Position numbers and translations under genes: made by a program
UHGV virus genome: UHGV-1791444
From: a virus
Strand: one strand, 5' to 3'
DNA length: 10,989 bases
Shown: positions 1 to 10,086 of the stretch, piece after piece
Position numbering within the stretch: position 1 is the first letter of the stretch
How the letters are laid out: every line of letters starts with the position of its first letter
Notes under the pieces: model-generated
Database searches by the model: none
Seen by the model: only the letters and a program-made list of their open reading frames with translations
Told to the model about the DNA's origin: nothing

Positions 1-1320
1 GACCCAACCATTGGTCTTGCCCAGATTCAGAAACTCAAGGAGCAGAACAACCTGCTTCAACCCGGTGAAGAACTAACGCCTCAGCGTCAGATGCTTATTA
101 ATGCCGAAGCCAGCTTACTGGAAGCGGTCAAGCGTAAGTCCGCTGAACAGGCTAAGGAGAACACTAAGTTAATCCAGACCCAGAACAAGCAACTGGTCAT
201 AGACCAAGTATATCAGCGGCGGCTGGCTGGTGACAACGTGTCCACCAACTATGAGGACCTTCCGGTCTCAGATGCTACAGGCGAGTTCAAGCGTTCTGAC
301 ATGAACAACTATGCGTCTGCCAAGCTACAGCAGATTGACCAGATGGACATCCCTGAGGCCGCTAAAGACGCTCAGAAGGTGGCATTGTTAAGAGCTGACA
401 CTAACAACGGTCCGTTCCGTAATGCCTTCCAGACGCTTACTCAGGACGCTGCTGGTGAGTGGCAAGCTGCGGTCATCCGTGGACAGTACGACCCAGACAA
501 GATGAAACGCTTCGAGTCACTGCGTCGTGCCTACACTCAGGACCCTTCAAGTTTCGCTGCTCTGTATCCTGACCAAGCTCAGTTGTTCTCTACGTTCGAC
601 CAGATGGACAAGATGGGTCTGGACCCTCAGACGATGATTGAAGCTGATAAGCAAGCTGCAAGTCAAAGCCGTGAGATGCGCATGGAGTCAGACAAGGCGT
701 GGCAGGAGTTGAAGAACGACTCTCGGAATAAGGACCTTTCGCGTCTTCCTACGTCTCTGGACTCAAGTGCTCGTAAGGTCTGGGACTCATGGTACTATCG
801 TACAGGTAACGCTGACGCTGCAACTCAGCAGACTCAACGATGGCTGAATGAAAATACCGTAACGTTCCAGTCTGAAGGCTCTGACGGTAAGTCCATCGGC
901 ATGGTGTCCAAGCACCAGCTTATGGTCGGGGATAACCCTGAGTCGTGGCAGGTAGGTCGAGACATTATCGACACCGCCCGTAAGCAGCTCATTAAGGCCA
1001 ACCCTTGGGTAGTGAACTCTCAGTTGTCCGTTGTTGAACAGAACGGCTCTATCTTCCTCCAAGACGCTACAGGGACTATTCGTATTCGCTACGATAAAGA
1101 ACTTGTAGGTAAACTCTACCGCGAACAACAGCAGAAGGCACAGGATGCCGCATACGCTCAGGCAGAACGTGACGCTAACAAGCGAGCGCGTATCGTCGGG
1201 ACTAAAGCTGCTGGTGACAAACGTCGAGCTGACCGAGAGGCCAACATCGAGAAGCGCGGAGGGATGTACAATGACGTCTCATTGGAGGGTATCGCAAACG
1301 TACTAATCGGTAAGGAGTAA
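1..1320 (+). CDS. Internal virion (core/ejectosome) protein C, gp15-like; 5'-truncated by the window edge
   Basis: Frame 1 is open from base 1 with no stop until TAA at 1318-1320, so the CDS begins upstream of the window. It sits immediately before a gp16-like gene, as in T7. The charged, Gln-rich, probably alpha-helical composition fits T7 gp15. Identification is by synteny and recalled similarity, not a search. Confidence 0.8.
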   Translation, partial: DPTIGLAQIQKLKEQNNLLQPGEELTPQRQMLINAEASLLEAVKRKSAEQAKENTKLIQTQNKQLVIDQVYQRRLAGDNVSTNYEDLPVSDATGEFKRSDMNNYASAKLQQIDQMDIPEAAKDAQKVALLRADTNNGPFRNAFQTLTQDAAGEWQAAVIRGQYDPDKMKRFESLRRAYTQDPSSFAALYPDQAQLFSTFDQMDKMGLDPQTMIEADKQAASQSREMRMESDKAWQELKNDSRNKDLSRLPTSLDSSARKVWDSWYYRTGNADAATQQTQRWLNENTVTFQSEGSDGKSIGMVSKHQLMVGDNPESWQVGRDIIDTARKQLIKANPWVVNSQLSVVEQNGSIFLQDATGTIRIRYDKELVGKLYREQQQKAQDAAYAQAERDANKRARIVGTKAAGDKRRADREANIEKRGGMYNDVSLEGIANVLIGKE

Positions 1321-1324
1321 CATA

Positions 1325-4300
1325 ATGGTGACTCGTGGTATTCGCAATAACAATCCGGGTAACATCCGGGTAAGTAAGGACCAATGGGAAGGAATGACTG
1401 GAGATGATGGCGCATTCGTCACCTTCGATAGTCCAGAGTCTGGCGTCCGAGCTTTAGGTAAAAACCTGCTGTCCTACGGTCGCCGAGGTTATGACTCCAT
1501 CGAGAAGATTATCAACCGATGGGCACCTCCTAACGAGAACGACACTAAGGCTTATATTGACTCAGTGGTGGCTGCAACTGGTATTCCAGCTACCCAGAGT
1601 CTCGACCTATCGGACCCTGACACCCTGTCTTCTCTGGCTCAAGCTATCAGCTTCCATGAGACAGGATCCCGGTACGACCCTGAAGTCTATCAGAAGGGAG
1701 TCGCACGAGCACTCAATGGCATTAGCCCAAAGACTCCACCAGTAAGCGCTAACGTATTTGACGCACTCACGGAAGGACTCAAGGCTAAACCTAAAGCAGC
1801 TCTGGGTGAGAACCTTCCGACCGCTGCTGGTCTGAATATTGAGGGTCAAGCACCTGAAGCTCCAAACGAATCGTTCGGTGAGATGTTCTATAAATCTACT
1901 GGCGAGACCATGCAGGAGCGAGAAGACCGCTCTACGTGGTTTGGTTTTGGTGCTGCTACAGAAGCTGAAGTGAAGAACTCTATGGTCGGCGTGGCTATCC
2001 GCGCTGGTCAGACTGAGGACTCACTGGATGTCATTGGCGATGTGTTCAACCCGACGCGATGGAACAACCATAAGTGGTCTCGTGAGGAGCTGGACCAGAT
2101 TCGTAACGCTGGAGTTCTTCCTCAGTATTACGGGGTCATTACTGGTGGCTCACCTCAGAACCTGACCGAGCTTATTAACTTGGCGCTTGAGAACCAGAAG
2201 TTGGACCAAGAGAAGGCCAAGGCAGGGATTGGTGCTCAGTTAGCTGCTGGTGTGATTGGTGCTGGTGTAGACCCGCTGACCTACGTTCCTATAGCTGGAC
2301 AGGTTGGTAAAGGTGGTAAGCTAGTAAACAAGATGTTCACCGTGGCTGCTCAATCTGGAGCACTGGCTGGTGTGTCCGAGATGGCCCGTACCTCAGTGGC
2401 TGGCGGTGATGCTCATGTGGCTGAGGCTATCCTTGGCGGTGCTCTCTTCGGTGGAGGTATGACTGCTATCGCTGATGGTTTAGGCAGAGCCTTAGGTCGT
2501 AACACTAACGAGTTCGCTGGTCCAGCCACACGTCTGGAAGCTCGTGAGACAGCTCGTAACGTTGATGGTCAGGACCTGTCTCGTCTACCTATTCAAGAAG
2601 GTGAGGAGACCTTTAGTCATCACGGCGTTAAGTTCGCTGACGTTCCGAATGAGCCGGGTAGTGTACGACTTGAAGATGGTTCAATACTGATTGGTGAGAA
2701 CCCTCTGAACCCTAAGACACGTAAGGTCTTTGACGAAGTGATTGAGCCTGAACGTGCAGCTGCTGGTGTGAACCTTGGTGGACTAACTGAGATTGGCCTG
2801 AAGCTGCTTCGGTCTGAGAACCCTGAGATTCGTGGAGTCGCTGCCGACTTAGTGCGTTCACCAACTGGTATGCAGTCAGGGGCCTCAGGTAAAATCGGGA
2901 CCACTGCGTCAGACGTATTCGAGAGACTTCGTGCTGTGGACCATCGGTTCTACAACGACATCGACGACGCGGTTACTGAGGCGCTCAAGGACCCATACTT
3001 CCAGACAGCATTCTGGAGAGACTCTGGCGCATTCCGTCAGGACATCTACCAGCGTGTGTCTATGGCTATTGAAGACGGAAGTGTGAACCTGAAGGCTGAA
3101 CTGACTCCGGGAGAACTGAAAGTCTATGACCTGCTGAAGAACCAGTTTGACGCCAAGCGTGAGATGATGGAGAACCCGGCGATGTTTGGTCGTCCAGACG
3201 CTCAGTCTATCTTTCCGGGTAGCCGATTCAAGGGAACCTACGTACCACATGTATATAGCAACCAGATGAAGGAGCTGTACATCAAGGAACTTGGAAGTCC
3301 AGAGGCACTACAGGAGGCCATCAAGAAGTCATGGTTGACCAGCTATGCGTCTCGACCTGAGGTCAAGAAACGTGTGGACGAGGCACTCTTAGAGGCTGAC
3401 CCTACGTTGACTCCAGAAGGACTTGCGGCTGCGGTAGATAAGTACGCCAACGATAAGGCTTATGGTATCTCTCACACCGAGCAGTTCGAGCGTTCATCCG
3501 TAATGGAAGAGAACATCAATGGTCTGGTTGGTCTGGAGAACAACAGCTTCCTTGAGGCTCGTAACCTGTTCGACAGCGATATGTCAATAGTTCTTCCTAA
3601 TGGTCAAACCTTCAGTGTCAACAACCTGCGTGAGTGGGACATGGACAAGATTGTCCCGGCATACAACCGTCGAGTTAATGGTGACATTGCTATTATGGCT
3701 GGTACAGGCAAGACAACGAAAGAAATGAAGGACTTGGTTGAGACCATGATGAACAAGGCTGGTGATGACGGAAAGTTGAAAGGTGAAGTATCTACCTTGC
3801 GTGACACACTTAAGATTCTAACTGGTCGTGCTCGACGTGATGGTGCTGACGATGCAGCCTTCGCTACCGTGATGCGCACAATGACAGACCTATCGTTCTT
3901 CGCTAAGAATGCCTATATGGGTGTTCAGAACTTAACGGAGATTGGTGGTATGCTGGCCCGTGGTAACGTTCGTGCAATGCTGCATGGAGTCCCAATTTTC
4001 CGTGACCTAGCCTTCCGTAACAAGAAGGTTGGGGCCTCAGAGATTAAGGACCTGCACAATGTTATCTTTGGTAAGGAACTTGATGACTCAATACGCCCAT
4101 CTAAACAGGATGTCATTGACCGTCTGCGGTCTTACAGTGACCTCGGTCGTGGTACAGCTACAGCTCTGGGGACTGCCAAGTATTACACTGGTGAACTTGC
4201 AGTACGCTCTCCGTTCACTAAAGTTCTCAACGGTACGACCAACTACCTGTTAGATGCTGGACGTCAAGGCTTCCTGTCTGACATCGTGGAGCATAGCCTG

Positions 4301-5212
4301 ACTGGTAGTAAGCGTAAGTTCGATGACCGCTGGCTGAAGACCGCTGGTATATCTGACGAGCAGTGGAAGGGCATTAAGTCATTAATCCGTGAGTCAGTGA
4401 CTCGTGGTCCAGACGGGAAGTACACAATCAAGGATAAGAAGGCGTTCAGTCAGGACCCAAGGGCTATGGACCTGTGGCGTATGGGTGACACCATCGCTGA
4501 CGAAACGTTACTCCGTCCCCACAAGCTGTCAAACATGGACGCCAAGGCTTATGGTCCTCTCGCTAAGACTGTCCTTCAGTTTAAGAACTTCGTCGTCAAG
4601 TCCATCAATGGACGTACCATGCGAACCTTCTATAACGCCACGAAGAACAACCGAGCGATGGATGCTGCTCTATCTACCGTGATGTCTATGGGTCTGGCTG
4701 GTATCTACTACATGGCTCAGGCTCACGTCAAGGCTTACGCTATGCAGGATGGCAGAGACCGTGAATACCTCAAGCAAGCTCTTGACCCGACGATGATTGG
4801 TTATGCGGCTCTGTCCCGTAGTTCACATCTGGGTGGCCCACTTGGGGTAGCTAACATTCTGGGTGGCATCGCTGGGTATGAGGACACTAAGATGCTCCGT
4901 TCGTCTATCCTACCTCGTTCGCCTACAGAGAAGCCTGAACGTGCCATCGCGTATGGTGCGGCTACAAGTGACCCTGTTATGAATGTTGTTGGTAACTTCT
5001 TGGAGCAGGTTCCAGCTTTCGGATATGCTGCTAACGTTGGCGCTTCGGCTTACAACTTGGCTGGCTACCTCAAGGCTGATACTCGCGTCAACGAGCGTGA
5101 CTACATGACCGGGATGTATAATACGTTCCGTGAACTGGTTCCGAACGACCCAATTACCCAGAAGCTGTTGCTTGGAACGTTTGAGGAGCAAGGCATCCAC
5201 ATCAAGGACTAA
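1325..5212 (+). CDS. Internal virion protein D, gp16-like (1295 aa), with a divergent N-terminal domain
   Basis: ATG at 1325 lies 8 nt after an AAGGAG Shine-Dalgarno (1311-1316). Long stretches match T7 gp16 as I recall it: GAGVDPLTYVP, MRLEARETARN, RSPTGMQSGASGK, GTYVPHVY, SRPEVK, AYGISH, GLVGLENNSFLEARNLFDSD, RRVNGDIAIM, NGTTNYLLDA, DPRAMDLWR, ALSRSS, ELVPNDP. The first ~130 aa (MVTRGIRNNNPGNIR...) do not resemble the T7 N-terminus. Confidence 0.9.
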   Translation: MVTRGIRNNNPGNIRVSKDQWEGMTGDDGAFVTFDSPESGVRALGKNLLSYGRRGYDSIEKIINRWAPPNENDTKAYIDSVVAATGIPATQSLDLSDPDTLSSLAQAISFHETGSRYDPEVYQKGVARALNGISPKTPPVSANVFDALTEGLKAKPKAALGENLPTAAGLNIEGQAPEAPNESFGEMFYKSTGETMQEREDRSTWFGFGAATEAEVKNSMVGVAIRAGQTEDSLDVIGDVFNPTRWNNHKWSREELDQIRNAGVLPQYYGVITGGSPQNLTELINLALENQKLDQEKAKAGIGAQLAAGVIGAGVDPLTYVPIAGQVGKGGKLVNKMFTVAAQSGALAGVSEMARTSVAGGDAHVAEAILGGALFGGGMTAIADGLGRALGRNTNEFAGPATRLEARETARNVDGQDLSRLPIQEGEETFSHHGVKFADVPNEPGSVRLEDGSILIGENPLNPKTRKVFDEVIEPERAAAGVNLGGLTEIGLKLLRSENPEIRGVAADLVRSPTGMQSGASGKIGTTASDVFERLRAVDHRFYNDIDDAVTEALKDPYFQTAFWRDSGAFRQDIYQRVSMAIEDGSVNLKAELTPGELKVYDLLKNQFDAKREMMENPAMFGRPDAQSIFPGSRFKGTYVPHVYSNQMKELYIKELGSPEALQEAIKKSWLTSYASRPEVKKRVDEALLEADPTLTPEGLAAAVDKYANDKAYGISHTEQFERSSVMEENINGLVGLENNSFLEARNLFDSDMSIVLPNGQTFSVNNLREWDMDKIVPAYNRRVNGDIAIMAGTGKTTKEMKDLVETMMNKAGDDGKLKGEVSTLRDTLKILTGRARRDGADDAAFATVMRTMTDLSFFAKNAYMGVQNLTEIGGMLARGNVRAMLHGVPIFRDLAFRNKKVGASEIKDLHNVIFGKELDDSIRPSKQDVIDRLRSYSDLGRGTATALGTAKYYTGELAVRSPFTKVLNGTTNYLLDAGRQGFLSDIVEHSLTGSKRKFDDRWLKTAGISDEQWKGIKSLIRESVTRGPDGKYTIKDKKAFSQDPRAMDLWRMGDTIADETLLRPHKLSNMDAKAYGPLAKTVLQFKNFVVKSINGRTMRTFYNATKNNRAMDAALSTVMSMGLAGIYYMAQAHVKAYAMQDGRDREYLKQALDPTMIGYAALSRSSHLGGPLGVANILGGIAGYEDTKMLRSSILPRSPTEKPERAIAYGAATSDPVMNVVGNFLEQVPAFGYAANVGASAYNLAGYLKADTRVNERDYMTGMYNTFRELVPNDPITQKLLLGTFEEQGIHIKD

Positions 5213-5276: not shown

Positions 5277-7277
5277 ATGTCCACGATTACACAATTCCCT
5301 TCAGGAAACACTCGGTACAGGATTGAGTTCGACTACCTAGCCAGAACGTTTGTTGTTGTTACGCTGGTGAATAGCTCTAACCCTGCCCTGAACCGTGTAC
5401 TGGAAGTTGGTCGAGATTACCGATTCCTTAATCCAACGATGATTGAGATGTTGGTTGACCAATCAGGTTTCGACATCGTTCGTATTCACCGTCAGACTGG
5501 AACTGACTTAGTGGTAGACTTCAGGAATGGCTCAGTGTTGACAGCTAGTGACCTGACCAATTCAGAACTTCAGGCTATCCATATTGCAGAAGAAGGGCGA
5601 GACCAAACTGTTGACTTAGCGAAGGAATATGCCGATGCTGCTGGTATCTCTGCTGGCAACGCTAAGGATAGCGAGGACGAAGCACGACGAATAGTTTCGA
5701 GTATCAGGGAAGCTGGTCTAATTGGCTATATTACCCGTAGCTCCTTCGAGAAAGGCTTCAACGTTACACTATGGAACGAGGTCCTGCTAAGGGAAGAGGA
5801 TGGTTATTATTACCGCTGGGATGGTGCTCTCCCAAAAACAGTGCCTGCAGGTTCAACCCCTGATTCCAATTGGACTAACGTAGGTAAGCTGAATGGGCTT
5901 GATGAGCACTCACCTGAGAACTTTGGGGCAATCCCGAACGACCCCAGCTTTGACTGTCTACCTGCTATAAAATTGGCCATAGCTACAGGCACATTAAACC
6001 TTGATGGCAAGTCTACCTACCACGTAACAGATGAGGTTGTTATTCCCTCTTACCTACGTGGGAATCTAAATGGGGCAACAATTAAAGCAATTGGTCCTAC
6101 ATGGCCTGCCTTAAAATCTGTTGTTCGTGTTAGTAAATTTCCTATTGGAACCCCAACCGTTGATGTAGCTAATACTGAGAACCAGGTACGAGGTCTACGT
6201 TTGATTGGTAGTCTGAACATAGACTGTGCAGATATTGCATCTTATGGTTTTTACGCACGACTAATGTGTGCAGAATCCGAGATGGGTAGTATCTATGCAT
6301 ATAATGCTAATAGATATGGCATTGTAATGTTTGCTTGCTGGTATTTTCAAATGGGCACTCTCCATGCAAACAACTGTGCAAGGGGCATGGCATTAGGTTA
6401 TTCAACGGAAGGTGAGCAAGGGGATACATATGTAAATGCTACACACTTCCCTCACATTAGTGCATGGGGTACAGATAAGTCTATGGGACTAGGTTATGAC
6501 CCAATCACAGATGATGCGAGTAAATATACGATAGGTGCTGGTATTATCTTAGGTCGTGGTTTATCTACTAGTGTTGGTGTGATTTGCTCTGAGAATACGT
6601 CTGGTGCTGGGGTGGTAACAATGGACCCTGCTGCGTGGGACATTGGGGTCATGTACTGTGAGGGCAATAGTAAAGACTTTACTCAAGAGGGTGAGCCGAA
6701 GGTATCATTATTGTCATCTAAGGCTAACAGCGAGAGTCATACACTTACCATCTCTACACTTCACCTATCTGCTGGTTGTGGCATCTTAACCAGAAGTAGA
6801 CAAGAGCGCGTGTTAATCAGAAGTCTATATCGTTTTGATAATTCAAGAACCTTCCACTCTTATTGCACAGCAGACACAGTAGAGGTTGGTAGCAGCAACT
6901 ACTATGTACTTAACGGGCATAATTACAACGCACCTGCTGCACTTATTAAGGAACCCCTTAATGTAGATTTTGTGCGTTCAGGGCTGACTTTGAGTGAGTG
7001 GACATCTACCGTTATTGGTCATTTCGCCGGTAGTACAGCAGAACAGCAGCTTTATGTTAAGTTACCAGCAAGTCCTAGTGGCCTGGAACTACAGATAGCT
7101 AGTGAGGATGGAACAGAATATATCACTGTAACTGGTACAGATTTTAAAGCATCTCTGACTAAGCAAAGATTGCCTAGTAAACTGTATGAGATAAAGATTG
7201 GTGGGGTATCTACAGTACCAGTTGCCGATTGCTCTATTTTAGTCAGAAGTAGAAAAGGAGACTGGTACTACTGGTAA
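5277..7277 (+). CDS. Tail fiber/tailspike gp17: T7-like N-terminal tail-attachment domain fused to a putative right-handed beta-helix polysaccharide depolymerase domain
   Basis: AAGGAGG Shine-Dalgarno at 5266-5272, ATG at 5277. The first ~150 aa align with the recalled T7 gp17 N-terminus ([42 protein letters not shown] versus T7 FEYLARKFVVVTL, DYRF, LVDFTDGSILRAYDL, MHVAEEARD). The remainder has no T7 fiber similarity; it begins with an [25 protein letters not shown] motif typical of pectate-lyase-like beta-helix tailspikes and is rich in G/N/S/T. Confidence 0.85.
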
Positions 7278-7319: not shown

Positions 7320-7514
7320 ATGATTGAGTTAGACTTCAAGAATGAGGTCCTTAAAGCCTCTCCTATCGTCGGGACCGCTGCGGCTGATGGTGCCAGTCGG
7401 TTCTTCTTCGGACTTACACTGAACGAATGGTTCTACGTTGCAGCTATCGCGTACACCGTTGTCCAGATTGGTGTGCTAGTCTACAAAACGATTAAAGGAG
7501 GTGGTAAAACATGA
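7320..7514 (+). CDS. Type II holin, gp17.5-like (64 aa)
   Basis: GGAGG at 7310-7314, ATG at 7320. The protein matches recalled T7 gp17.5 (SPIVGTAAADGASRFFFGLTLNEWFYVAAIAYTVVQIG versus T7 APIVGTGVADVSARLFFGLSLNEWFYVAAIAYTVVQIG). It has one hydrophobic helix and a short charged C-terminus. Its stop overlaps the next start (ATGA at 7511-7514). Confidence 0.85.
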   Translation: MIELDFKNEVLKASPIVGTAAADGASRFFFGLTLNEWFYVAAIAYTVVQIGVLVYKTIKGGGKT

Positions 7515-7774
7515 CGCAGATGGACTTAGAGAAGTTCCTCTTGATGCTTGATACTGAACGTGCTCGACTCATGCTGCAAGACTTGCGGGATGACACTAAG
7601 CGTTCACCTCAGCTCTACAACGCCATTGAGAAGCTGCTTGCTCGTCACAACTTTGTGTTAAGCAAGGTGTCTGTGGACGAGAAGACGCTGGCTGATATGG
7701 AGGCCCTGAACGCAGAGTACGATAAGGTGCTTTCAGCGACTGAGGATAATGACACAGGGTATGGTGTTCAATAA
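7511..7774 (+). CDS. Terminase small subunit (DNA maturase A), gp18-like (87 aa)
   Basis: AAGGAGGTG Shine-Dalgarno at 7495-7503, ATG at 7511. The FLLMLDTERARLMLQDL...RSPQLYNAI motif matches recalled T7 gp18 (FLEMLDTAMAQRMLADL...RSPQLYNAI). Position between the holin and Rz is as in T7. Confidence 0.85.
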   Translation: MTQMDLEKFLLMLDTERARLMLQDLRDDTKRSPQLYNAIEKLLARHNFVLSKVSVDEKTLADMEALNAEYDKVLSATEDNDTGYGVQ

Positions 7775-7876: not shown

Positions 7877-8326
7877 ATGCTCGAATTTTTAAAGAGAGCG
7901 GCTCCGTGGTTACTTGCAGCAGTGATGTTTGCTGGTGGCTACCACACCGCTAACAATAAGTGGGAGGCTAAGGTCAATGCAGAATACACCTCGAATCTTA
8001 AGGCATCGGAAGATACAAGGCTTGCTGTACAAGCTGAAGTCGACAAAGTGTCCAAACGGTTTCAGGACGAAATGTCCTCTCTGGAAGGCAGCACTGATAG
8101 GATTATTGCTGACCTTCAGTCTGACAATAAGCGGCTGCGCATCCGAGTCAAACCTACGAGTGGAGCCACGCAAAGTGACGGTCGATGCGTCATTGATGGT
8201 TACGCCGAACTTGACGAACGAGATGCTAAACGTCTTATCGCCATCGGAGTGAAAGGAGACAAGTGGATTAAGGCCCTTCAGGACACGGTGAGAGCCTTAC
8301 AGCAAGATAAGGAGGTGACGAATTGA
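7877..8326 (+). CDS. Rz-like i-spanin, gp18.5-like (149 aa)
   Basis: GGAGG at 7866-7870, ATG at 7877. It has an N-terminal membrane anchor ([13 protein letters not shown]) and matches recalled T7 gp18.5 motifs ([49 protein letters not shown]). Confidence 0.85.
7977..8252 (+). CDS. Rz1-like o-spanin lipoprotein, gp18.7-like, embedded in the +1 frame of Rz
   Basis: Lies entirely inside the gp18.5 gene in a different frame. The signal peptide and lipobox ([19 protein letters not shown]) are followed by ASES...SLMV.PNLT.EMLNV, close to recalled T7 gp18.7 ([23 protein letters not shown]...SLMVEPNLTTEMLNV). Start is set at the ATG at 7977; the frame is also open from a TTG at 7929. Confidence 0.7.
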   Translation: MQNTPRILRHRKIQGLLYKLKSTKCPNGFRTKCPLWKAALIGLLLTFSLTISGCASESNLRVEPRKVTVDASLMVTPNLTNEMLNVLSPSE

Positions 8327-10086
8327 GTAAAGACTTAGTGGCGCGTCAGGAGCTAATGACTGCCCGTATGAAGGCAGACTTCGTGTTCTTCATCTTCGTT
8401 CTCTGGAAAGCTCTTAGCCTTCCGGTTCCAACACGCTGCCAGATAGATATGTGTAAGAAGCTAGCTGCTGGGGATAATCGCCGCTTCATTCTTCAGGCGT
8501 TCCGTGGTATTGGCAAGTCGTTTCTGACCTGTGGTTTCGTGGTCTGGAAGTTATGGAACAACCCAGACTTGAAGTTCATGATTGTGTCAGCCTCAAAGGA
8601 ACGAGCCGATGCGAACTCCATCTTCATCAAGCGAATCATCGACCTCATGCCTCAGCTTCAGGAACTCAAACCTAAGCAGGGACAGCGAGATGCGGTTATC
8701 AGCTTCGACGTTGGGCCAGCCAAGCCAGACCACTCACCTTCGGTTAAGTCCGTTGGTATCACTGGTCAGTTGACTGGTAGTCGTGCTGACATCCTGATTG
8801 CCGATGACGTGGAGGTTCCGAACAACTCAGCTACTCAGGCTGCACGAGACCGACTGTCAGAGCTTGTGAAAGAGTTCGACGCTATCCTGAAGCCGGGAGG
8901 TACAATCATCTATCTGGGTACTCCTCAGAACGAGATGACCCTGTATCGTGAGCTGGAAGGCCGTGGATACACCACTACTATCTGGCCCGCTCGTTATCCA
9001 CGCGACAGGAAGGACTGGCAGTCTTACGGCGACCGTCTGGCACCGATGCTTCAGGCAGAGATGGAAGAGGACCCTGAGTCCTTCTACTGGCGTCCGACTG
9101 ATGAAGTACGCTTCGATGATACGGACCTGAAGGAGCGTGAGCTGTCATACGGTAAAGCTGGCTTCGCTCTACAGTTCATGCTTAACCCTAACCTGAGTGA
9201 TGCCGAGAAGTACCCCCTGAAGCTCCGTGACCTTATCGTAGCAGACTTGGACCCAGCGTCTAGCCCAATGGTCTACCAATGGTTGCCAAACCCTCAGAAC
9301 AAGCGTGAGGACGTTCCTAACGTTGGACTCATGGGTGACTCGTACCACACGTATCAGACTGTAGGTTCTGCGTTCAGCTCATACACCCAGAAGATTCTGG
9401 TCATTGACCCTAGTGGTCGTGGTAAGGATGAAACTGGTTATGCGGTACTGTATCAGCTCAACGGCTACATCTTCGCTATGGAAGTGGGTGGTATGCGTGG
9501 CGGTTATGAAGACTCTACGTTGGAAGCCTTGGCTAAGATTGGTCGTAAGTGGAAGGTCAACGAATACGTCATTGAGGGTAACTTCGGTGATGGTATGTAC
9601 CTTGAGCTATTCAAGCCTGTAGCGGCCCGTATCCATCCTGCGGCTGTAACTGAAGTGAAGAGTAAGGGTCAGAAAGAACTCCGCATCTGTGACGTTCTGG
9701 AGCCTATCATGGGGTCTCACCGACTTATCGTTAACGCTGCTGCTATCGTCCAAGACTACCAGACAGCCTCTGATAAGGATGGCGTTCGTACCCCTATCTA
9801 CTCTCTCTTCTACCAGATGACCCGTATCTCTCGTGAACGTGGAGCCTTGGCACACGATGACCGACTTGATGCGCTGGCTATCGGTGTACAGTTCTTCGTT
9901 GAGTCTATGGCTAAGGATGCCAACAAAGGCGAACGTGAAGTCACTGAGGAGTGGCTGGAGGAACAGATGGAGAACCCACGGAAAGGCTTTGAGTCCATCC
10001 ACACCGAGTTCTGGGACAATGGGGTCCGGGTAACTCACAATACGGACGACGAGCTAGGACTAGGGTCATACGTTACGTTTCACTAG
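8323..10086 (+). CDS. Terminase large subunit (DNA maturase B), gp19-like (587 aa), apparent TTG start
   Basis: Similarity to recalled T7 gp19 runs the full length ([136 protein letters not shown]). The reading frame opens right after a TAA at 8308-8310, and the first start-type codon is TTG at 8323, 7 nt after AAGGAGG (8309-8315). That TTG overlaps the Rz stop. Confidence 0.92.

What the first reader, a model, noticed from the sequence alone, without database searches (positions are those of the whole stretch)
1325..1930. gp16 N-terminal domain does not look like the canonical lytic transglycosylase
T7 gp16 begins with a soluble-lytic-transglycosylase-like domain carrying a catalytic Glu in a TES-type motif. 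Here the C-terminal ~1100 aa are clearly gp16-like, but the first ~130 aa (MVTRGIRNNNPGNIRVSKDQWEGMTGDDGAFVTFDSPESGVRALGKNLLSYGRRGYDSIEKIINRWAPPNENDTKAYIDSVV...ISFHETGSRYDP) show no recognisable transglycosylase motif and the region before T7-like similarity resumes is shorter. This suggests a domain swap at the tip of the ejectosome protein, possibly to a different cell-wall-active domain. Whether it has any catalytic activity is unknown.
Basis: partly seen in the sequence, partly recalled or inferred. Interest (0 to 1): 0.55.

Follow-up and report, generated by a model that had tools for sequence, protein, structure and literature searches.

The report
K1F-type gp16 carries Enc34-type lysin
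The DNA-injection protein gp16 of this K1F-like phage has, in place of T7's lytic transglycosylase, a different but already characterised cell-wall-cutting domain (the Enc34 endolysin / PM2 P5 type), an ordinary example of phages swapping modules.

Summary
The window is the late region of a Kayfunavirus (K1F-like T7 relative). Its gp16 (1325..5212, 1295 aa) aligns with T7 gp16 at 53% identity only from residue 125 (T7 152). T7 residues 15-127 are a Pfam SLT domain. Residues 1-131 here match no Pfam or NCBIfam model, and a profile-profile comparison with the T7 SLT family finds nothing (probability 0.4%).

The three residues proposed as catalytic in Enc34 (Trp79, Tyr95, Glu131) are W66, Y77 and E112 here. 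They are conserved across the family, and the domain is under purifying selection in Kayfunavirus gp16 (dN/dS about 0.10).

The family (PHA02564, "virion protein", PM2 P5) has shown muralytic activity, probably N-acetylglucosaminidase. So this is a module swap to a known lysin type, shared by about 219 phage records. It is modestly interesting. Many records probably mislabel the gene as a lytic transglycosylase.

The parts
1325..1717 (+). gp16 residues 1-131: Enc34-endolysin / PM2-P5 type (PHA02564) muralytic domain, in the position of the SLT domain of T7 gp16
1658..1660 (+). codon GAG = Glu112 (in FHETG), the predicted catalytic acid
   Evidence: It aligns with Enc34 Glu131 (paper numbering; +1 in the RefSeq ORF) (PMC8943055). 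It is invariant in the 56-sequence family alignment and in 7 Kayfunavirus gp16 sequences.
1520..1522 (+). codon TGG = Trp66, the predicted substrate-positioning aromatic residue
   Evidence: It aligns with Enc34 Trp79. It is conserved in at least 90% of the family alignment. It is W in 6 of 7 Kayfunavirus gp16 sequences and Y in the one UNVERIFIED record.
1553..1555 (+). codon TAT = Tyr77, the predicted active-site tyrosine
   Evidence: It aligns with Enc34 Tyr95. It is invariant in the family alignment and in the 7 Kayfunavirus gp16 sequences.
1718..1930 (+). gp16 residues 132-202: flexible linker, T7-like ('molecular tape' region, T7 about 159-228); not part of the swapped module
   Evidence: The BLASTP alignment with T7 runs from residue 125 on, and the first shared motif GI(S/T)PK is at 132-136. 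pLDDT drops after residue 133. A 3-aa GAG indel sits after residue 131 in other Kayfunaviruses.
1931..5212 (+). gp16 body (residues 203-1295), the conserved T7-like ejectosome/core protein
   Evidence: It is 53% identical to T7 gp16, near-identical to 9vvp Gp29 (core proteins of phage E1004), and matches T7 gp16 chains 7eyb/7k5c/6yt5. It hits PHROG 342.
1..1320 (+). 3' part of gene 15 (internal virion protein C); the reading frame is open from the left edge of the window
   Evidence: It matches 9vvp Gp28 residues 352-760 and T7 gp15 and PHROG 1339. The frame is open over nt 1-120.

Best explanation
Residues 1-131 of this Kayfunavirus gp16 are a virion-borne peptidoglycan glycosidase of the Enc34-endolysin / PM2-P5 (PHA02564) family. 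The domain is fused to a T7-type gp16 body exactly where T7 carries its SLT lytic transglycosylase.

Inferred mechanism, by analogy with T7: gp16 is packaged in the internal core with gp14 and gp15. At infection it is ejected through the tail, and its N-terminal domain refolds in the periplasm beside the gp15 tunnel. There it opens the murein locally so that the trans-envelope channel can form. Glu112 would act as the general acid, and Trp66 and Tyr77 would position the glycan.

The bond cut is most likely GlcNAc-beta-1,4-MurNAc (hydrolytic N-acetylglucosaminidase), not the MurNAc-GlcNAc bond that T7 cleaves by lytic transglycosylation.

Shown here: the domain boundary, absence of SLT, homology and fold identity to Enc34, conservation of the proposed catalytic residues, and purifying selection. 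Inferred: catalysis in this protein, bond specificity, and the role at infection.
For: - Boundary: the T7 alignment starts at residue 125 (T7 152), and T7 has SLT at 15-127.
- Conservation: all 19 invariant columns of a 56-member family alignment are present, including Y77 and E112, and W66 is near-invariant.
- Selection: dN/dS of the N-domain across 7 Kayfunavirus genes averages 0.10 (range 0.05-0.19), against 0.07 for the body, and E112 and Y77 are invariant.
- Biochemistry of relatives: Enc34 ORF39deltaC lyses OM-permeabilised E. coli, P. aeruginosa and H. alvei, and Glu131, Trp79 and Tyr95 superpose on catalytic residues of GH73/GH23 enzymes (PMC8943055). In M4Lys, LC-MS shows loss of GlcNAc from muropeptides (PMC7143992).
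- Virion use of the family elsewhere: PM2 structural protein P5 (PMC9502842), the Sit-like protein of P1-like phage D6, and an 837-aa protein encoded by a phiV10-like phage (annotated hypothetical).
- T7 model for the role of gp16-N: PMC8954989.
Against: - No enzymatic or genetic data exist for any gp16 of this type.
- No mutagenesis of the proposed catalytic residues is reported in the sections of the Enc34 paper I read (Results and Discussion), where they are assigned by superposition and conservation.
- Bond specificity in the family rests on one LC-MS study, which also suggested an endopeptidase activity.
- Enc34 activity on E. coli was about 6-fold lower than hen lysozyme.
- The N-domain changes faster in amino acids than the body (77-83% against 89-94% identity).
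- It seems not to be modelled in the 9vvp core structure: the one chain matched by Foldseek has 1106 of 1295 residues modelled and was aligned over only 80 columns.
- In T7 the lytic activity is dispensable under standard conditions (Moak and Molineux 2000, as summarised in PMC8954989), so the function could be marginal.
Confidence: 0.8

Rival explanations
1. The N-terminal domain is simply a highly divergent member of the SLT/GH23 lytic transglycosylase family, that is, the same module as in T7 drifted beyond recognition.
For: Many database records call the gene 'peptidoglycan lytic exotransglycosylase'. The Enc34 authors argue for very distant common ancestry with GH73/GH23, with the Glu, Tyr and aromatic residue at equivalent positions (PMC8943055).
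Confidence: 0.04
2. The domain is retained mainly as a non-catalytic structural or murein-binding module (for example the 'wings' on the gp15 periplasmic tunnel), with little or no enzymatic role.
For: T7 gp16-N has a structural place on the gp15 tunnel, and its catalytic activity is dispensable in standard conditions (PMC8954989). There is no activity assay for this protein. The domain diverges faster than the body.
Against: All family-invariant residues, including the proposed catalytic Glu, Tyr and Trp, are kept in the window protein and in 6-7 of 7 Kayfunavirus homologues. dN/dS is about 0.10. Conservation of an active-site signature is not expected for a purely structural module.
Confidence: 0.1
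3. The domain is a murein hydrolase of another specificity (muramidase, or a dual glycosidase/endopeptidase) rather than an N-acetylglucosaminidase.
For: M4Lys LC-MS suggested both glucosaminidase and endopeptidase products (PMC7143992). Specificity was not measured for Enc34 (PMC8943055). The nearest structural relatives span GH73 and GH23, which cut different bonds.
Against: The closest structural relative reported by the Enc34 authors is a GH73 N-acetylglucosaminidase (TM0633), and the authors found no features that would suggest a peptidase site (PMC8943055).
Confidence: 0.25

Closest known systems
Hafnia phage Enc34 ORF39 endolysin catalytic domain (PDB 7Q47) and Salmonella phage BSPM4 M4Lys; NCBI CDD family PHA02564 'V virion protein'
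   Different: In those phages the domain is a lysis-cassette endolysin fused to a C-terminal transmembrane domain and acts at the end of infection. Here it is the N-terminus of a 1295-aa internal core/ejection protein and would act at the start of infection. The window domain is shorter in two loops (gaps).
T7 gp16 N-terminal SLT (GH23) lytic transglycosylase domain, catalytic Glu37
   Same: Same position in the same protein, with the same downstream linker and body (53% identity). The presumed role is the same: local murein opening for the ejectosome.
   Different: It is an unrelated sequence family at profile level (hhalign probability 0.4%). The domain here is 27 residues shorter, with a permuted all-helical core lacking a beta-lobe. 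It is probably hydrolytic and probably cuts the other glycosidic bond.
Corticovirus PM2 structural protein P5 and homologues in Vinavirales/Autolykiviridae
   Same: Same lysin family used as a virion component. Yutin et al. found the same W/Y/E triad conserved (PMC9502842). Phage records label tblastn hits 'structural protein P5'.
   Different: PM2 P5 is a small protein of a tailless membrane-containing virus, not a domain of a podovirus ejection protein.
Other virion-associated lysins in ejection or tape-measure-like proteins carrying this domain (P1-like D6 Sit, phiV10-like 837-aa protein, Providencia phage PSTRCR_120 'internal virion protein D')
   Same: The same domain is embedded in large injected or virion proteins.
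   Different: The host proteins differ, and the domain sits internally or C-terminally. Identity to the window domain is only 34-52%.

Membership tests
Enc34-type lysin domain (PHA02564 / PM2 P5 family) | Significant sequence similarity to a characterised member across the catalytic domain | tested here: met
   phmmer against 7q47_A gives E 3.3e-15 over residues 3-122. BLASTP against Enc34 ORF39 gives 36% identity, E 2e-22.
Enc34-type lysin domain (PHA02564 / PM2 P5 family) | Same fold as the Enc34 crystal structure | tested here: met
Enc34-type lysin domain (PHA02564 / PM2 P5 family) | Proposed catalytic signature Trp79 / Tyr95 / Glu131 (Enc34 numbering) | tested here: met
   W66, Y77 and E112 align with them. 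They are invariant or near-invariant in the family and in Kayfunavirus gp16.
Enc34-type lysin domain (PHA02564 / PM2 P5 family) | Peptidoglycan-degrading activity | not testable with these tools
   Activity is shown only for Enc34 ORF39deltaC and M4LysdeltaTMD (PMC8943055, PMC7143992). This protein would need a zymogram or turbidity assay.
SLT / GH23 lytic transglycosylase (as in T7 gp16) | Match to the Pfam SLT profile (PF01464) with the catalytic Glu-Ser motif | tested here: not met
   There is no Pfam hit at E<=1 for residues 1-202 or for the whole protein, while T7 gp16 scores 1.7e-31.
SLT / GH23 lytic transglycosylase (as in T7 gp16) | Profile-profile or fold similarity to SLT domains | tested here: not met
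T7-type gp16 internal virion protein D (ejectosome/core protein) | Full-length homology of the body to T7 gp16 and synteny gp15-gp16-gp17 | tested here: met
   The body is 53% identical over 1170 aa. It matches PDB 7eyb/7k5c/6yt5 and 9vvp. The gene order gp15, gp16, tail fibre, holin, terminases is as in T7.

The most novel reading that the evidence does not exclude
The most novel reading not excluded is this. K1F-type phages breach the murein with a hydrolytic N-acetylglucosaminidase that belongs to a very large, permuted lysozyme-like family that neither Pfam nor NCBIfam models (at least 17,698 clusters at 50% identity). In that case the chemistry of the cut (bond and mechanism) would be irrelevant to ejectosome assembly. 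Kayfunavirus and T7 would then form a natural pair for testing what the ejectosome actually needs from its lysin. For example, it could be asked whether the glucosaminidase confers infection of cells whose murein resists lytic transglycosylases (O-acetylated or highly cross-linked).
Probability: 0.4. Interest if true: 0.4.

Novelty: new member of a known kind. Interest (0 to 1): 0.3.

Why it matters
The result gives a homology-based prediction for the first 131 residues of gp16 in the whole Kayfunavirus genus (about 219 phage records): a domain type, a candidate active site (E112, Y77, W66) and a probable bond specificity. It flags a widespread, probably wrong annotation, 'peptidoglycan lytic exotransglycosylase', carried over from T7. 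It documents that the lysin module of the T7-type ejectosome is exchangeable between unrelated sequence families at a precise linker. This fits the known mosaicism of ejection proteins but offers a clean natural comparison. It also shows that a very large lysin family, used by endolysins and virion proteins alike, still lacks a Pfam or NCBIfam model. That gap explains why a recent in-silico survey (PMC12031403) lists these 1295-aa proteins with no domain.

Tried and rejected
- Pfam and NCBIfam scans of residues 1-202 and of the whole protein found nothing.
- Recent horizontal acquisition detectable by composition was rejected: GC is 0.50-0.52 in the N-domain, the same as its neighbours.
- A decaying or non-functional remnant was rejected by dN/dS of about 0.10 and the intact signature residues.
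- Literature: no paper was found for PDB 9VVP or phage E1004. The K1F genome paper (Scholl and Merril 2005) is not held, so I could not check whether the missing transglycosylase motif was already remarked there.
- Searches for K1F + gp16 + transglycosylase gave only reviews that list T7, T3 and phiYeO3-12 gp16 as lytic transglycosylases and do not list K1F.
- The afdb50 fold library was unavailable.
- The word-indexed protein search with the T7 SLT domain returned only 10 proteins, so the SLT profile used in hhalign is shallow (11 sequences).

Full report
**What is in the window**

The 10,989-base window is the late, right-hand region of a T7-family podophage of the genus Kayfunavirus (K1F-like).
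- Gene 16 is 94-96% identical in DNA to Escherichia phages vB_EcoP-R1, ZG49, PE3-1, EcoDS1 and K1F.
- The gene order is as in T7: the 3' part of gene 15 (1..1320, open from the left edge), gene 16 (1325..5212, 1295 aa), tail fibre/spike (5277..7277), holin (7320..7514), small terminase (7511..7774), Rz-like spanin (7877..8326) and large terminase (8323..10086).
- The gp15 and gp16 products are near-identical to chains Gp28 and Gp29 of PDB 9VVP, 'Core proteins of the bacteriophage E1004', released 2025-11-12.

**Checking the observation**

- BLASTP against T7 gp16 gives 53% identity over window residues 125-1295 = T7 152-1315, and nothing for residues 1-124.
- phmmer against PDB finds the T7 gp16 chains (7EYB, 7K5C, 6YT5) only over residues 126-1294.
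- T7 gp16 has Pfam SLT at residues 15-127 (E 1.7e-31). The window protein and K1F gp16 have no Pfam hit even at E<=1 and no NCBIfam hit.
- In a multiple alignment, the first motif shared with T7 is GI(S/T)PK at window residues 132-136. The AlphaFold confidence collapses at 134-137. Other Kayfunaviruses have a 3-residue GAG indel right after residue 131.

The swapped module is therefore residues 1-131 (nt 1325-1717). It ends at the boundary of the T7 transglycosylase domain, which a review places at residues 1-156, followed by a 'molecular tape' at 157-228 (PMC8954989).

**What the domain is**

Pfam is silent, but the domain is not an orphan.
- PHROGs match it strongly to internal or terminal domains of families annotated endolysin (head and packaging), head protein, tape measure protein and 'tail injection transglycosylase'.
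- phmmer against PDB sequences matches chain 7Q47_A, the catalytic domain of the Hafnia phage Enc34 endolysin, at E 3.3e-15 over residues 3-122. BLASTP to the RefSeq ORF39 gives 36% identity, E 2e-22.
- I built a 56-sequence alignment from a database search and predicted residues 1-210. Residues 10-133 have block pLDDT of 87-98.

**What is known about that family**

- Cernooka et al. (PMC8943055) showed that the Enc34 domain, NCBI family PHA02564 'virion protein', lyses outer-membrane-permeabilised E. coli, P. aeruginosa and H. alvei.
- For the homologue M4Lys, LC-MS showed loss of GlcNAc from muropeptides, plus a possible endopeptidase activity (PMC7143992).
- Yutin et al. found the same fold and triad in the corticovirus PM2 structural protein P5 (PMC9502842). 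That explains the 'structural protein P5' and 'virion protein' labels on many hits.

**Active-site mapping and constraint**

- In both pairwise alignments, Enc34 Trp79, Tyr95 and Glu131 (paper numbering, which is one less than the RefSeq ORF) align with W66, Y77 and E112 of the window protein.
- In the family alignment, Y77 and E112 are invariant and W66 is conserved in at least 90% of sequences. The window protein carries all 19 invariant residues.
- I compared seven Kayfunavirus gp16 genes (window, K1F, SFPH2, Ro45lw, PRF-SP2, Dev2, EcpYZU01). Nei-Gojobori dN/dS averages 0.10 for the N-domain (range 0.05-0.19), 0.11 for the linker and 0.07 for the body. E112 and Y77 are invariant, and W66 is replaced by Y only in the UNVERIFIED record.
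- The domain is thus under purifying selection. It does change somewhat faster in amino acids than the body (77-83% against 89-94% identity at the same divergence).
- GC content of the module equals that of its surroundings, so the swap is not recent.

**Is it just a diverged SLT?**

With the body at 53% identity to T7, in-place divergence of only the first 131 residues beyond all detection is not credible. The family also exists on its own in huge numbers, as described next. The only link to SLT is the remote, permuted superfamily-level relationship argued in PMC8943055.

**Distribution**

- A full HMMER scan of 1.84 billion cluster representatives with the family profile finds 17,698 proteins at E<=1e-3 and 3,519 at E<=1e-30.
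- Most of the best hits are stand-alone proteins of 134-260 aa. The domain also sits at the N-terminus, middle or C-terminus of proteins up to 1421 aa, and once occurs in four tandem copies.
- tblastn finds it in 736 phage records. These include Kayfunavirus gp16; stand-alone endolysins next to spanins in Pseudomonas Mu-like phages (JBD30 gp24); the Sit-like protein, annotated 'tail injection transglycosylase', of P1-like phage D6; an 837-aa protein, annotated hypothetical, of a phiV10-like podophage; and Chi-like endolysins.
- Another Autographiviridae protein, 'internal virion protein D' of Providencia phage PSTRCR_120, has a 36%-identical version.
- About 219 phage records carry the whole Kayfunavirus-type gene, so the feature is genus-wide and not peculiar to this genome.

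**How it most likely works**

The following is inference by analogy with T7 (PMC8954989), not shown here. The domain is packaged as part of the gp14-gp15-gp16 core and is expelled through the tail at infection. It refolds in the periplasm next to the gp15 tunnel. There it cleaves glycan strands locally so that the channel can cross the murein. E112 would be the general acid, and W66 and Y77 would hold the sugar.

The likely difference from T7 is chemical: hydrolysis of the GlcNAc-MurNAc bond instead of non-hydrolytic cleavage of MurNAc-GlcNAc to a 1,6-anhydro product. Catalysis, specificity and phenotype are untested for any gp16 of this type. In T7 the activity matters only when murein is highly cross-linked.

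**Comparison with what is known, and novelty**

The domain passes every membership test I could run for the Enc34 / PHA02564 / PM2-P5 family: sequence, predicted fold and signature residues. It fails those for SLT. The body passes the tests for T7-type gp16.

Exchange or relocation of the lysin module among podophage ejection proteins is already a recognised theme (PMC8954989, PMC5380687). I found no paper in the held library that states that K1F-type gp16 carries the Enc34-type domain. A 2025 in-silico survey lists such 1295-aa proteins with no domain at all (PMC12031403). Many GenBank records call the gene a 'lytic exotransglycosylase'.

I therefore rate it a new member of a known kind: a correct and useful annotation, not a new mechanism. 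Kayfunavirus is the deepest branch of Studiervirinae in a midpoint-rooted tree (PMC11990801), so which lysin type is ancestral in gp16 is open.

**Limits**

- The structure is a prediction.
- The SLT profile is shallow.
- The K1F genome paper and any paper on 9VVP could not be read.
- The afdb50 library was unavailable.
- Foldseek matched one chain of 9VVP, with 1106 of 1295 residues modelled, and aligned it over only 80 columns. This suggests, but does not prove, that the N-domain is disordered in the packaged core.

Noticed in passing
window 1325-1717, and proteins P0131-P0275: The lysin family of the gp16 N-domain has no Pfam or NCBIfam model, yet it has 17,698 representatives of 50%-identity clusters at E<=1e-3. 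P0131 (762 aa) has four tandem copies. P0132 (1259 aa) combines it with a crAss cargo-protein domain, and P0162 (1198 aa) combines it with a Zeta-toxin domain. These look like multi-effector injected proteins.
   Followed up: partly
window 5277-7277: In the tail fibre/spike gene, the first 198 aa (T7 tail-fibre N-domain plus Tail_spike_N) match the tail spike of phage E1004 (PDB 9VVR, E 8.8e-116 over residues 1-198) and other podophage spikes. The C-terminal ~468 aa, the receptor-binding or enzymatic part, have no PDB or Pfam sequence match. This is a second module swap in the same window.
   Followed up: partly
related records MT350292.1, PV615262.1 (hits H25, H19): Records named 'Enterococcus phage EFA-1' and 'Acinetobacter phage vB_Aba_01KA' carry this enterobacterial Kayfunavirus gene at about 95% nucleotide identity. 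The host labels look doubtful.
   Followed up: no
many related records (for example OR228483, OQ860985, MN518893, MT496969): Gene 16 of Kayfunaviruses is widely annotated 'peptidoglycan lytic exotransglycosylase' or 'transglycosylase', although no SLT domain is present. The label was probably transferred from T7 through the conserved body.
   Followed up: yes
L008 1-169 (Escherichia phage Ro45lw, NC_048136 29244-29693): An annotated 'endonuclease' CDS ends 19 nt inside the start of gene 16 in Ro45lw. It occupies the position immediately upstream of gene 16, where gene 15 ends in SFPH2, PRF-SP2 and the window, and may be a homing-endonuclease insertion. It is absent from the window.
   Followed up: no
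L010 (Enterobacter phage EcpYZU01, MK033136, UNVERIFIED): Its gp16 open frame is 1485 aa, with about 190 extra residues inserted after the position of window residue 690. It also has Y in place of W66.
   Followed up: no
window 7877-8326 and 7929-8252: The Rz-like spanin gene has an embedded +1-frame ORF (7929..8252, TTG start) in the position of T7 gene 18.7 (Rz1-like). This was not examined further.
   Followed up: no
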